Of a stretch of 37,070 bases of DNA, positions 11,831-17,800 are shown piece by piece. Numbering within the stretch: position 1 is the first letter of the stretch; the number at the start of each line of letters is the position of its first letter. Where the stretch lies: contig CBDANQ010000030.1 in the NCBI GenBank assembly GCA_965197725.1, forward strand, positions 1 through 37,070, read 5' to 3'. The DNA is from Longimicrobiales bacterium (GTDB lineage: Bacteria; Gemmatimonadota; Gemmatimonadetes; Longimicrobiales; Gaopeijiaceae). Made by a program: the position numbers.

Positions 11831-14800
11831 TGAGATGTTCGACCGATTCACGCTCATCACGGGCCCCTGTGTGCTCGAGAGTGACGAGCTGAACCTCGAG
11901 ATAGCGCGGGCCGTCAAGGGCTTGGGTGAGTCGTTCGGGCTGCCCGTCATCTTCAAGGCTTCGTTCGACAAGGCGAATCGGTCGCAGATGGACTCCGCGC
12001 GAGGCCCCGGGCTCGCTGAGGGCCTGCCACGACTGGCCACGGTGAAAAAAGAGACTGGTCTCACGCTCCTTACGGACATCCACGAACCGAAGCAAGCCGA
12101 ACGCGCGGCGGCGGTCGTCGACGTACTGCAGATCCCAGCGTTCTTGTGTCGTCAGACCGACCTCTTGCTCGCCGCCGGCGCCACGGGCAAACCCATCAAC
12201 CTGAAGAAGGGCCAGTGGATGTCTCCCGACGACATGGCGGGCGCAGTCGAGAAGCTCCGCAGCGCGGGAGCGACAGACGTCGCGGTCACGGAACGAGGCA
12301 CGTTCTTCGGCTACGGCAACCTGGTCGTCGACATGCGCTCCTTCGCGACCGCGCGTGCCGCGACCGGCACGCCCGTGCTCTTCGACGGAACGCACTCGGT
12401 GCAGCGGCCCGGCCGGGCGGACGGATCGAGCGGTGGAGACCCGCAACACACCCCCGTGCTCGTGCGCGCAGCGGTTGCGGCAGGTTGCGACGGACTGTTT
12501 CTGGAGACCCACCCGAACCCTGCCGGCGCACCTTCGGACGGCTCGAACATGGTGCCCCTCGAGCGTATGCGTGGACTCTTGAAGGACGCGGTCGCGATTC
12601 GGTCCGCGCTCACCAGCGCGGCCAAGAGGGATGCGGACGCTCCGTGAGCTCCATGAGCCCCATGAGCCCGATGAGCGCCGGAGCCCGGCCGATTGACGCG
12701 GAGCTCGCCGCCCAGATCAAGCTCGTCATCTTCGACGTGGACGGCGTGCTCACCGATGCCGGTGTCTATGTCGGGGCGAGCACGGGCGGGGAGGCCACCG
12801 AGCTGAAGCGCTTCGACATACAGGACGGCGTCGGTCTGAAGATGCTCATGTGGTCCGGCCTCGAGGTCGCCATCGTGTCCGGGCGAACTTCGGAGGCGAC
12901 CGCGCTGCGGGCCCGCGAGCTCGACGTTGTGGAGTGCCACCAGGAAGCGAACGCCCACAAGCTCGGCATTGTGGAGGATCTGCTCAGTCGGAAAGCGGTG
13001 GAGTGGCACGAAGTCGCAATGCTCGCGGACGACATTCCGGATCTCGCGGTGCTGCGACGCGTGGGCCTCAAGGCCGCCGTGGCCAACGCGACCTCTCATG
13101 TGGTGGACATCTGTGACTGGCAGTCGAGCAAAGCCGGGGGCCACGGCGCGGCCCGCGAGTTCTCGGACGCACTGCTCGCGGCACGAGGGGAGCTCGATGA
13201 CGTCGTGGAGCGCTACGTCGAGGAGCGAAGCCGGTGACGCGCTCAGCCGCGTTGCATCCCGGCGGAACATTGGGAACGAAGCTCTCGGTCCGTGTAGCAG
13301 ATGTCATGATAGCGGACGAACATCCCCTGCTCGGTGAGGGCGCGACGATGAAGGACTCGATCGCGCTGCCCACTTCCTAGACCATGCGATCAGAGAGATC
13401 ATGACTCGAGATCCGAAGACCGCGCGGCCCGAGGGGTTGGGATCCCCTGCCGGCCACCGGATGGAGGCGCATGGCAAATGGACGTAGCGACGTTGGGACT
13501 CGAACACGGGCCGCGTTTCCGGACACTCGTGCTCCTTGCTGGTTTGGCAGCTTGCGAAGCGCCTACGAGCGGCGCGGTGGCTTCTCATGAGCTCCTGGAG
13601 ATGGGAGCGGACAACATCGTGTTCGGAATGGTCAGCTTCATGACTTCCAACGGAATCCGTGAGGGCCGGGTCGAGGCCGACACGGCCTTCATGTACGCGG
13701 ACTCGGCGAAGGCGAAGCTACGGCAGATGCGCATCGTCTTCTACGACGAGAACGGGGCCGAGCGGGCCACGGTCACGGGAACAGCCGGAGAATGGGACCG
13801 GAACACCGACCGAATGTGGGCACAGGGTGACGTCCTGCTCATAGTGCACGCCGACGGGCGCCGCATCGAGAGCGCGGAGATCGTCTACGATCCCTTCGAG
13901 GACGAAATCTGGAGCGACTCGGCGACCGTGCAGACGCTCGCCGACGGGCGGGTGACCCGGGGTTCGTCGTTCCGGTCCGACATGGAGTTCCGGAACGTGG
14001 AGATCGCGAACATCCGCGGAGCCGTCGGCCGCTAGCTACCGACGCCCATGTCCTCACCCGCCCCTCGTGGCCGGTCCGCAGCCGCGCTCGTCCTGTTGAC
14101 CTGCGCCTGGATCCCCGCCCGGATCGCTGCTCAGGAGGACTGCGATTTCGTCGCGCCGACCAGGTCGATGCAGTTCACCACGCTCACGAGCGGTTCCACG
14201 ATTACCTACGTCGGCGCACCGCACATGCTGTGCCGGGACGGGATCGAGATCTGGGCCGATTCCGCGGTGGAGTACTCCGCCCAGAGGATGCAGCACATGA
14301 TGGGGTCTGTGCGCTTCATCGACGCCAATGGGGAGTTGAACGCCGATGAAGCCCGCTACTTTCCCGAGCAGGGTCGACTTCAAGCCAACGGCCACGTCTT
14401 TGTCCAGGACACTCTCCAGGGCTTCACGATCCGGAACGGGAACCTGGTGTATCTGCGCGCCACGGACTTCCGGGAGGAGCCACAGACTACGGTGACGATC
14501 GCGGCGGACGGCATTCAGCCACACGCGATCCTACGGATGAGGCCGGCAGAGCCTAGGCCAGAGAGCATCGAACCGACAGCCCCGGATGCTATCACAGCGG
14601 ACTCCACCGGCACGGCTCTTTCGGCGGAGGCTCTCGTCCTCCCCGTGGATGCCGAGCCCGACGGGCAGGGTTCGCCCTACATCGTCGACGGCAACCAAAT
14701 CTTCATCCAGGGTGACAGCTATTTCCGCGCGACCGGCAATGTCGAGATCCAGCGGGATTCACTGAACGCGTTCGCTGACAGCGTCGAATATGACCAGGTA

Positions 14801-17800
14801 GCGGGCCGAATCTTGCTCGAAGGATCTGCCCGAGTCGACGGTCCGACGTACGATCTCGTTGGTCGCACGATCACGCTCGGCATGGACGGCGACGACATCG
14901 ACGAGGTGCGGGCCGTTCACGACGCCGTGCTGAACGGCGACGACCTGGTGCTCACGGCACCGGAGATCCGGATCTACCTGCTCGACGATCTACCGCAGAG
15001 ACTCGTCGCCGTGAGGGCCCCGGCGCCGCCTGACGTCATGTCGGTCGACAGCGCTGATGCGCGGCCCGTCGCCCAGGCCGACGACTTCGAGCTCACCGGG
15101 GACTCGATCGAGGTCATCGTGCCCGGCGAGGCGCTCGAACGGATCTTCGCGGCAGGCATGGCCCGTAGCGTCTCTCGCGCACGCGACTCCTTGAACGTCG
15201 AGACGCTGTCGGAGATCGCGCGCACCGACTGGTTGGAGGGCGACACGGTCATCGTAATGTTCGTGCCTGCGGACACCAGCGAGCGCCGGGGGCCTGCCGC
15301 GGACACAGCGCAGGCGGCCTACCAAATCGACCGGATCATCGCCCAGGGCGCCGCGCGGAGTCTGTACCGACTACCACCGTCGGACACCACCGCGGTCCCG
15401 GGTGAGGACGAACCCGCCGTGCACTACGTGCTCGGCGATGAGATCACGATCGTCATGGTCGAAGGCGACATCGACCACATGGAAGTGACCGGCCAGACGC
15501 GAGGCATACATCTCGAGCCAGTGCCGGTGATGGAGGACAGCCTCGCAGCACGGACCTCCGGAATCGACACGACGACTGCCCTCGACACGACCACGCTCGC
15601 TGGCTCGCCCCGAGAAACCACGCCGCCGGAGCCTTCGCGCCCACCGGACTCACGCACGCCATCATCTGGCGGCCATCCCCAAATCCGGAAGTCGGCCGCG
15701 ACTCATCATCCATGGAGGGGCTCGTGACGGATGCCGACAAGCCGGGCGCCCAGAGTAGGCTCTCCGGCGAGGGTCTCACCAAGATCTACCGACGCCGCAA
15801 GGTCGTGAACGAGGTGGATCTTACGGTTCGCCAGGGAGAGATCGTCGGGTTGCTGGGGCCGAACGGTGCGGGGAAGACCACGACCTTCTACATGATGGTC
15901 GGGCTGATCCCCCCGCATTCCGGCACTGTCCACCTGGACGGTGACGACCTCACAACCACCGCGATGTACCGTCGAGCCCGCCGCGGGATCGGCTACTTGG
16001 CCCAAGAGCCGTCGGTCTTCCGACGCCTCACGGTCGAGGAGAACGTGCTCGCGATCCTCGAGACGCTGAAGCTGCCCAAGGCGGCACAGCGCGAGCGGCT
16101 CGATCAGCTACTCGGCGAGCTGGGCCTGGAGAAGCTCAGAAAGAACAAGGCGTATTCGCTCTCCGGGGGCGAGCGGCGTAGGCTTGAGATCACGCGAGCT
16201 CTCGTCCAGCGGCCGAAGTTCATGCTTCTCGACGAGCCGTTCACGGGCATCGATCCGATCGCGGGCAACGATATCCAGCAGATCGTTCGCGGACTGAAGG
16301 ACCGCGACATCGGGGTGATCATCTCGGATCACAACGTCGAGCAGACGCTCGAGATCGTGGATCGGGCATACATCATGTACGAAGGACGTATCCGAGTGAG
16401 TGGGACCGTCTCAGAGTTGGTTTGGAACGAGGAAGTTGCGGAGATTTACCTCGGTCCGACGCTGACGACACGGATGCGGGCCCGGTATCCGGAGCCGGCC
16501 GGGGTCTAAGTGGAGATCTGAGTCACCGATGAGCCAGTTCATCAAACTGCATCAGAGTGCGCAGCTCCGGCAGGAGATGCGGACCAACCCACGCCTATAT
16601 CAGGCGATGGAGTTGCTCTACATGCCGATGCTGGATCTCGAGCAATACCTGAAGCAGGAGGTTTCGGAGAATCCTCTGCTGGAGATGGTCGAGGCGGACG
16701 TCGAGCAGGAAGTCGAGCTCAAGGAAGAGACCGACGACGAACCCATGGGCGACGACGATGTCGACTGGGAGGAAATCCTTCTCGACGGATTCGACGTCGG
16801 GGGTCGGCGCGAGCAGTACGAGCAGACTGAACACTTCGAGCGTACGCCGGTCGACACGCGCGACCTGCACGATCACCTGCAGGACCAGCTGCGTATGCTT
16901 TCGCTGTCGGAACGACAGCTCCGGATGGGCGAGGAGATCGTCGGAAACATCAACGATGACGGACTGCTCGCGTGTGGGCTCGTGGAATCGGTGAGGGGTG
17001 TGAACGGCTGGCTCGCGGAGGTGCGGCCCGCGGCGATCGCGACCGCGGAGTCGATCGCTGACGAGGCCGCGCGCGCCGCCGACCTCGAGGAGATCGCGGC
17101 GCTCTTCAAGCCGTACGTCATCGAGGAAGCCGAGGCGATGCTCGAGGTCATCCAGGGCTTCGACCCGCCGGGGATCGGAGCTCGGGACGTGCGCGAGTCG
17201 ATTCTCATCCAGCTCAGGATGCGTGACGAAGAGGGTGAGCTCACGTATGTGATCGTGCGGGACCACTTCGACGCGCTCTCCAACCATCGCTGGACGGAAC
17301 TCGCCAAGGAGCTCGGCGTGCAGCCGATCGAGGTGCAGGACGCCGCCGACGCGATCAGGCATCTCGATCCCAAACCAGGACTCAAGCACTCCGCGGAACT
17401 GGAGCAGTATGTCATCCCTGATCTCATTGTCGAGGAGATCGACGGTGAGTATATGGTCTTCGCCAACGATACGAGCTTGCCCAGGTTGCGCATATCTCAG
17501 AGCTACCGGGAGATCGCACAGGACAAGAAGAAGTTCACAGGCGAAAACAAGGAGTTCATCTCCAGCAGACTGAATTCGGCCCACTGGATGATTCAGGCGA
17601 TCGAGCAGCGGCGTCAGACCATGCTCAAGGTCATGCACTTCATTGTGGACCGCCAGCGCGACTTCTTCGAGCGAGGGGTGCAACACCTCAAGCCTCTCAC
17701 GCTGCGCGAGGTCGCCGATTACATCGAGAAGCACGAGTCGACCGTGTCCCGCGTGACGAACAAGAAGTATGTGCAGACGCCGCGCGGAGTGTATTCACTC

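What a model noticed while it worked through the whole genome (the two positions that open the first line are those of the whole stretch)
13478..16509. The LptA slot holds a 559-aa protein built of three LptA-like jellyrolls in one chain
Between lptC and lptB, where lptA normally lies, is a 559-aa exported protein with no Pfam call; a structure model shows three consecutive LptA/LptC-type beta-jellyroll modules joined by short or disordered linkers. I read it as a single-chain LptA trimer, so that the periplasmic LPS bridge of this lineage has a genetically fixed length. How many LptA copies span the periplasm is an open question, and a natural covalent bridge would settle it for one phylum and give a defined construct for structural work.
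Evidence so far: Order kdsA-kdsC-lptC(g00985)-g00986-lptB-rpoN; no other gene carries an LptA/OstA family in the tables. Sub-threshold Pfam: LptD_N/LptA 226-278 (E 2.5e-4), OstA_2 80-122 (E 0.12). 464 database relatives; the best 119 are 387-651 aa, 44-90% identical, named ones Gemmatimonadota, some called LptA by JGI. AlphaFold2 on a 22-sequence alignment headed by the 90%-identical, equally long orthologue P0897: pLDDT 73.6, beta blocks 40-162, 211-322, 341-489, linker 174-206 and tail 495-559 disordered. VIA-align: 27-163 on LptA 2R1A (Z 12.7, rmsd 1.8, 123 aligned) and LptC 4B54 (Z 12.6); 208-346 on LptH 4UU4 (Z 15.3, rmsd 2.4, 126) and LptA 2R19 (Z 14.2); 345-494 on LptA 8GAK (Z 10.9, rmsd 3.8, 103). 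Fo [...]
(Added by a program. Inside this text positions count along the whole contig: contig position 1 is position 1 of the stretch shown here. "Call 12" and the like, gene names such as g00115 and contig names such as C1 are that model's own, and its searches are not shown. The text may have been shortened before it was handed on; [...] marks where a part breaks off. The agent that wrote the report below was given it as the finding of a first reader that could run no searches.)

Follow-up and report, generated by a model that had tools for sequence, protein, structure and literature searches.

The report
Extra-long single-chain LptA bridge protein
This gene makes an unusually long version of LptA, the protein that carries lipopolysaccharide across the space between the two membranes; it is real and typical of its whole phylum, but a related long LptA was already solved in Bacteroidota in 2026.

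Summary
ORF 14048-15727 (559 aa) lies between lptC and lptB. Folded on its own sequence, all three parts match LptA/LptH (Z 9-15). It is better read as one continuous beta-taco of about 44 strands (16+16+12) than as three LptA copies. Relatives gain or lose 29-residue rungs, not whole domains; short forms lack exactly two rungs. The gene is in 300 of 301 Gemmatimonadota genomes. It aligns end to end (HH probability 98%) with the long OstA-like protein of Bacteroidota. An October 2026 preprint solved a 56-strand Bacteroidota LptA docked on LptD, so a long single-chain LptA is not new. A model puts the C-terminal strands on this genome's LptD (0.67; best control 0.15). Found on the way: in the phylum of a Latescibacteria record, the long LptA is fused to LptD in 19 of 20 loci checked, and lptC abuts lptB in 24 of 25 genomes. 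That fixes LptA:LptD at 1:1 there. One copy per bridge is likely here but not shown. It does not settle the copy number in E. coli.

The parts
9375..10157 (+). kdsB (CMP-Kdo synthetase)
   Evidence: PF02348 E 6.6e-48
11835..12647 (+). kdsA
   Evidence: TIGR01362 338.9 bits, cut-off 314
12668..13237 (+). kdsC
   Evidence: TIGR01670 116.4 bits, cut-off 106.95
13478..14035 (+). lptC
   Evidence: TIGR04409 above cut-off; PF06835 E 1.6e-7
14048..15727 (+). long lptA, 559 aa, one beta-taco of about 44 strands
14048..14131 (+). probable Sec signal peptide, residues 1-28
   Evidence: read from sequence, no predictor run; A/G at 28 in 97 of 103 and Q at 29 in 97 of 103 aligned relatives; C19 not conserved, so no lipoprotein anchor
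14141..14533 (+). rungs 1-4 (residues 32-162, 16 strands), presumed LptC-facing end; C32 in 101 and C62 in 103 of 103 relatives, probably a disulfide (inference)
14534..14674 (+). disordered side loop (residues 163-209), 8-166 aa among relatives
14675..15079 (+). rungs 5-8 (residues 210-344, 16 strands); carries the PF03968 hit; about two rungs here are missing in shorter relatives
15086..15520 (+). rungs 9-11 (residues 347-491, 12 strands), the C-terminal part shared with Bacteroidota and Ignavibacteria long LptA; predicted to dock on LptD
15521..15727 (+). disordered Pro/Thr/Ser-rich tail
   Evidence: pLDDT under 50 at 502-525 and 533-559
15712..16509 (+). lptB; its start overlaps the end of lptA
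   Evidence: TIGR04406 above cut-off
16529..18034 (+). rpoN (sigma-54)
   Evidence: PF04552, PF04963, PF00309

Best explanation
The protein is the LptA of Gemmatimonadota: a Sec-exported, soluble, elongated beta-taco of about 11 rungs (44 strands, 2.75 times E. coli LptA). Its hydrophobic groove carries lipid A tails from LptC to LptD. LptB2FG drives extraction. The N-terminal strands pair with LptC (inferred from E. coli and Pseudomonas, not tested here). The C-terminal strands pair with the first strands of the LptD N-domain (modelled). One chain most likely does the job of two to three stacked E. coli LptA molecules (inferred). It belongs to an FCB-wide long-LptA lineage whose members share the C-terminal rungs and differ in rung number. 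Shown: gene order, fold model, distribution, homology. Modelled: LptD docking. Inferred: LPS transport, LptC contact, one copy per bridge.
For: Gene order: lptC and lptB flank it in 52 of 54 relative loci, and all three parts are in one ORF in 53 of 54. It is present in 300 of 301 phylum genomes. It is the only PF03968 hit in this 89%-complete genome, which also has lptF/G, lptD, lptE, lpxC, lpxK and waaA. Fold. Continuity: pTM is 0.75 despite about 150 low-confidence residues, and the LptD 5IV9 N-domain aligns across the loop (model 27-252, 161 aligned, rmsd 3.6, Z 12.8). Homology: the profile aligns with 16 Bacteroidia OstA_2 proteins at probability 98.1%, E 1.4e-13, 379 columns. Module 3 aligns to their C-terminus (84.6%, 110 columns) and to that of four Ignavibacteria/Chlorobiota-type proteins (95.5%), but hardly to 20 short LptAs (5%). 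The ESM Atlas lists a Bacteroidota OstA cluster at 0.94. Complex model with this genome's LptD N-domain: score 0.67, best of 3 controls 0.15; that mark was reached by 116 of 157 solved complexes and 2 of 215 mismatched pairs; runs agree in at least 98% of contacts; partner pLDDT at least 80; interface at LptA 474-492. The pass may come from likeness to solved head-to-tail jellyroll pairs. Natural LptA-LptD fusions join the same two ends within about 10-25 residues. Bacteroidota cryo-EM shows a long LptA assembled on LptD as a continuous taco.
Against: No experiment on LPS binding or transport. Self-association of the long chain was not tested, and no periplasm width was found for this phylum, so one copy per bridge is inferred. 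TIGR03002 (18.5 vs 71.7 bits) and PF13100 (12.5 vs 21.2) are far below cut-off. Part of the similarity to Bacteroidota proteins may be generic repeat similarity: an alternative register scores 97.5%. Rung counts for relatives are by eye; my automatic counter failed its shuffle control. The waaA match lies in two frames, which may be a frameshift or an assembly error. That the OstA_2 proteins I pulled are the preprint's LptA is inferred (14 rungs by eye = 56 strands); I saw no locus tag.
Confidence: 0.88

Rival explanations
1. Three independent LptA domains on flexible linkers (a covalent trimer, beads on a string).
For: Parts 1 and 2 each have 16 strands. Part 1 ends in a strand that aligns with the last strand of short LptA (probability 95.9%). 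A disordered 47-residue stretch separates parts 1 and 2.
Against: Part 3 has 12 strands and follows part 2 without a linker. pTM is 0.75, and solved chains align across the loop. Short relatives (337-344 aa) align colinearly with one clean gap of about 81 residues, i.e. two rungs (probability 99.8%). Profiles repeat at 29-30 and 58-59 residues. A tether of 8-166 residues could not fix a length.
Confidence: 0.15
2. It is a long LptA, but it still stacks as two or more copies, so bridge length is not fixed by the gene.
For: E. coli LptA oligomerises through its terminal strands (passages of PMC5575297), and both terminal edges are free in the model.
Against: By the E. coli model series (185 A with one LptA, about 35 A for each further copy), one 44-strand chain gives about 246 A. 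That is within the 240-275 A of other envelope-spanning complexes (inference). The Bacteroidota structure is described with LptA as one of nine subunits, only LptS and LptR being duplicated. Relatives fused to LptD had no second LptA hit.
Confidence: 0.2
3. A bridge-like protein that carries something other than, or in addition to, LPS, such as surface lipoproteins.
For: The Bacteroidota preprint shows lipoprotein export through the LPS translocon, proposes travel along LptA, and reports LptP across seven further FCB phyla. This genome's LptD is of the Bacteroidota-type family PF19838.
Against: The gene sits in the Kdo/lpt operon and lipid A genes are present, so LPS is the default cargo. LptP, LptN and LptT were not searched for here. 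Extra cargo would add to the best explanation rather than replace it.
Confidence: 0.25

Closest known systems
Bacteroidota long LptA (Flavobacterium johnsoniae, Bacteroides thetaiotaomicron; bioRxiv 10.64898/2026.10.03.756453; by my inference the Pfam OstA_2 PF13100 proteins)
   Same: Single soluble chain far longer than E. coli LptA; continuous beta-taco; C-terminal end at LptD; end-to-end profile homology with a shared C-terminal part.
   Different: About 44 strands rather than 56. Still in the kds-lptC-lptA-lptB-rpoN operon, whereas the Bacteroidota translocon genes are unlinked. Below the PF13100 cut-off. Has large disordered loops and a conserved Cys pair.
E. coli LptA (YhbN; PF03968, TIGR03002; PDB 2R19/2R1A) and Pseudomonas LptH (4UU4)
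   Same: Same fold in each part (Z 9-15), same operon slot, same predicted head-to-tail strand pairing with LptD.
   Different: 2.75 times as many strands in one chain; fails the TIGR03002 equivalog cut-off; homo-oligomerisation probably not needed (untested).
LptD N-terminal domain and LptC
   Same: Same beta-taco fold (5IV9 Z 12.8, 6MJP Z 11.7).
   Different: No barrel and no membrane anchor; separate lptC and lptD genes exist in this genome.

Membership tests
LptA/OstA superfamily (PF03968) | Pfam score above the curated cut-off | tested here: met
   21.7 vs 20.4 bits; 58 of 59 relatives match at E<=0.1
LptA/OstA superfamily (PF03968) | beta-jellyroll (beta-taco) fold | tested here: met
   predicted models; Z 15.1, 13.1 and 9.3-11.7 for the three parts
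LptA (functional slot) | gene between lptC and lptB | tested here: met
   window; 52 of 54 relative loci
LptA (functional slot) | cleaved signal peptide, no membrane anchor | tested here: inconclusive
   pattern and conservation fit; no predictor or experiment run
LptA (functional slot) | C-terminal strands bind the LptD N-domain | tested here: inconclusive
   model supports but does not show binding: 0.67 vs best control 0.15; the same ends are fused in relatives
LptA (functional slot) | N-terminal strands bind LptC | not tested
LptA (functional slot) | binds and transfers LPS; essential | not testable with these tools
   needs experiment
Proteobacterial LptA equivalog TIGR03002 | score above 71.7 bits; single domain of about 160-185 aa | tested here: not met
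   18.5 bits, 559 aa; not filed under this equivalog
Bacteroidota long LptA / OstA_2 (PF13100) | PF13100 score above cut-off | tested here: not met
   12.5 vs 21.2 bits; 13 of 59 relatives match at E<=0.1; so a relative, not a member of the Pfam family
Bacteroidota long LptA / OstA_2 (PF13100) | colinear homology including the C-terminal part | tested here: met
   hhalign 98.1% over 379 columns; module 3 84.6% to Bacteroidia vs 5% to short LptA
Bacteroidota long LptA / OstA_2 (PF13100) | 56 ladder strands | tested here: not met
   about 44 from the DSSP list, counting the 12 long cross-over strands as two
Bacteroidota expanded translocon | partners LptN, LptP, LptT | not tested
   no sequences of these were available from the tools

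The most novel reading that the evidence does not exclude
FCB-group bacteria encode the soluble span of the LPS bridge as one chain and tune its length in 29-residue rungs: about 36 strands in other Gemmatimonadota classes, 44 here, 48 in Ignavibacteriales and 56 in Bacteroidia. One whole phylum has welded it to LptD. Rung number would then be a heritable ruler matched to periplasm width, which can be tested by adding or deleting rungs.
Probability: 0.3. Interest if true: 0.65.

Novelty: new member of a known kind. Interest (0 to 1): 0.37.

Why it matters
It extends the long single-chain LptA, solved in Bacteroidota in 2026, to Gemmatimonadota, where it keeps the classic operon. The comparison shows that the unit of length is a rung and not a domain. 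It also turns up a phylum-wide natural LptA-LptD fusion that I did not find in print. A graded natural series (about 36, 44, 48 and 56 strands) and a covalent LptA-LptD give constructs for testing whether bridge length has to match periplasm width. The E. coli copy-number question, called open in two papers, is not answered by it.

Tried and rejected
(1) Automatic rung counter (two position matrices with dynamic programming): shuffled sequences gave nearly as many rungs (for example 12 vs 11.6), so it was discarded. Rung counts for relatives are by eye, backed by alignment gaps and periodicity. (2) Sequence search of the PDB: nothing with the single protein; with the profile only LptH (E 0.004) and LptD (E 0.019). 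No Bacteroidota LptA chain appeared in the PDB copies searched. (3) Foldseek on the whole model gave mostly long spurious alignments, with LptD, LptC and LptH at probability about 1. (4) Natural split between parts 1 and 2: the two cases examined are an N-gap (G192) and a frame change in the low-complexity loop of a one-contig genome (G135); treated as artefacts. L206 and L253 are similar single cases. (5) Genome-wide enrichment of the Bacteroidota O-glycosylation motif in crudely called exported proteins: not seen (observed/expected 0.68 in 158 signal-peptide ORFs, 0.96 in 860 cytoplasmic ones). (6) L076 (529 aa, Xanthobacter) was dropped from the list of long proteins because only its last 120 residues match LptA, so the start is probably over-extended. 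(7) Paper searches for an LptA-LptD fusion or for Gemmatimonadota LptA showed none in their listings; the library lacks most subscription papers. The preprint's Extended Data Table 2 (an image) and its supplements, which I could not see, list homologues across FCB phyla and may already include this protein or the fusion.
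Full report
Observation. The window carries kdsB, pyrG, kdsA, kdsC, lptC (13478-14035), a 559-codon ORF (14048-15727), lptB (15712-16509) and rpoN on the + strand. 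It is below cut-off for PF13100 and TIGR03002. It is the only PF03968 match in the genome, which is 88.9% complete. The genome also holds lptF and lptG, a 958-aa LptD of family PF19838, lptE, lpxC, lpxK and waaA.

Structure. AlphaFold2 on this sequence with 58 relatives gave pLDDT 80.8 and pTM 0.75. The list has 32 strand elements. Counting the 12 long cross-over elements as two gives 16 + 16 + 12 = 44 strands, i.e. 11 rungs of four strands. The match to LptH is Z 15.1 for 208-346; to LptC Z 11.7 and to LptA Z 9.3 for the first part. Residues 336-495 folded alone reach pLDDT 92.3 and match LptH at Z 13.1 (rmsd 2.3) and LptA at Z 11.5, above the first unrelated row at Z 5.4. The LptD N-domain aligns across the disordered stretch (model 27-252), so in the model that stretch loops out of a continuous groove. 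I did not see coordinates; continuity is read from pTM and these alignments.

Distribution. A 103-sequence profile finds the gene in 300 of 301 phylum genomes, in all 12 families sampled (four of the 301 are flagged unpublished and enter only this tally). Named database relatives are Longimicrobiales and other Gemmatimonadota. I read 54 loci: the 29 best, 20 chosen across other families and 5 from other classes. All three parts lie in one ORF in 53, and lptC and lptB flank it in 52. The first loop is 8-166 residues (median 37), while part 2 is 111-145. In other classes of the phylum the protein is only 337-344 aa or about 430-470 aa. The three shortest align colinearly at probability 99.8% with a single gap of about 81 residues, two rungs. 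Column profiles repeat at 29-30 and 58-59 residues in four of five stretches tested; the middle part of this family did not show it. So length changes by rungs.

Relation to other phyla. Ten had a LptA-like ORF over 400 aa next to lptB, with one further doubtful case dropped. These are two Ignavibacteriales (463 and 479 aa), and LptC+LptA chains in five Acidobacteriota, two Hyphomicrobiaceae and one Bacteriovoracaceae. All 26 genomes searched for PF13100 (25 Bacteroidota/Ignavibacteria/Chlorobiota records and one Latescibacteria record) had a match. The Gemmatimonadota profile aligns to 16 complete Bacteroidia proteins at 98.1% over 379 columns. Part 3 matches their C-terminus and barely matches 20 short LptAs. 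By eye the Bacteroidales protein L127 has 14 rungs, Ignavibacteriales L183 has 12, L184 has 11 and L218 has 9.

What is in print. [quoted passage not shown] Fourteen rungs of four strands give that number, which supports both my count and the identification. The word Gemmatimonad does not occur in the main text. Their Extended Data Table 2 covers further FCB phyla and is an image I could not read; bioRxiv supplements are closed. PMC5575297 (passages) and bioRxiv 10.1101/2023.04.28.538765 (passages) state that LptA copy number in E. coli is unsettled. The latter models 185 A membrane spacing with one LptA and about 35 A per further copy. PMC13742822 (abstract) shows LptH extending the terminal strand of LptC.

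Docking and fusion. The complex model of residues 28-495 with this genome's LptD N-domain scored 0.67 against a best control of 0.15. That mark was reached by 116 of 157 solved and 2 of 215 mismatched pairs; runs agree in at least 98% of contacts and partner pLDDT is at least 80. The contact is LptA 474-492 on LptD residues 84-106. This supports but does not show binding, and it may reflect likeness to solved jellyroll pairs. Independently, the genome behind a record titled Candidatus Latescibacteria encodes a 1187-aa chain with the long LptA in front of LptD. In its phylum 81 of 81 genomes have the LptA part, 78 of them in open frames over 1000 codons; two of the other three lie at contig ends. 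Of 20 loci read, 19 hold LptA and LptD in one ORF and one has a frame change. In 24 of 25 genomes lptC lies 11-140 bases from lptB, leaving no room for lptA. Every PF03968 hit in those 25 genomes (24 had hits) falls in the fused gene. The fused LptA part aligns to this protein at 99.7% and ends about 10-25 residues before the LptD part begins.

Mechanism. Shown: gene order, distribution and homology. Modelled: fold and the LptD contact. Inferred from the known Lpt pathway: LptB2FG extracts LPS and passes it to LptC; it slides along the 44-strand groove to LptD/E. One copy would give roughly 246 A on the E. coli scale (185 + 1.75 x 35), within the 240-275 A quoted for other envelope-spanning complexes, so a single copy suffices in principle. 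Self-stacking was not tested.

Verdict. Real and well supported, but a further member of a kind already solved. Earlier notes of this scan describe several fused bridges in Planctomycetota (unchecked leads), so single-chain bridges recur. The fresher points are the rung-wise length series and the phylum-wide LptA-LptD fusion.

Noticed in passing
L196:4133-7696 (G326) and L244-L263: Long LptA fused to LptD in one ORF of about 1100-1400 aa across the phylum of a Latescibacteria record (19 of 20 loci read; lptC abuts lptB in 24 of 25 genomes). Not found in the paper searches.
   Followed up: yes
L011, L019, L052, L066, L070 (Acidobacteriota), L010, L073 (Hyphomicrobiaceae), L038 (Bacteriovoracaceae), upstream of lptB: Single ORFs of 409-783 aa carrying both LptC and LptA Pfam matches, i.e. 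LptC-LptA fusions.
   Followed up: partly
window 14534-14674 and 15521-15727; alignment A2: The disordered loops and tail of the family are rich in D-S/T-(A,I,L,V,M,T), the Bacteroidota O-glycosylation motif (abstract of PMC8550257): 261 seen vs 31 +- 5 shuffled in loop 1, and 186 vs 21 in the tail, against 4 vs 8 in cytoplasmic window proteins. Sequences are related and repetitive, and a crude genome-wide test showed no enrichment. Possible glycosylation, unproven.
   Followed up: partly
window 15712-16509 versus L134-L216: LptB ORFs of about 400 aa in many relatives suggest an N-terminal extension that this genome's 265-aa LptB lacks.
   Followed up: no
G000:C51:75899-76388 (L230, L231): The waaA N-domain match lies in two reading frames: a frameshift or an assembly error.
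   Followed up: no
window 18031-26118: Glycan cluster after rpoN: GT2, UDP-GlcNAc 2-epimerase, GT4, an 826-aa YfhO-like membrane protein, an LPG-synthase-like membrane protein, a second GT2 and a methyltransferase.
   Followed up: no
window 563-1846 and 1939-2949: Mutator-family transposase near the contig start, followed by an NHL-repeat protein.
   Followed up: no
window 5358-7225: Phosphoribosyltransferase-like gene (QRPTase domains) next to an isochorismatase-family gene, probably nicotinamide salvage (inference).
   Followed up: no
L163, L164, L206, L253: Apparent splits of the long lptA or of the fusion, caused by an N-gap or a frame change in low-complexity loops; likely sequencing artefacts.
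   Followed up: partly
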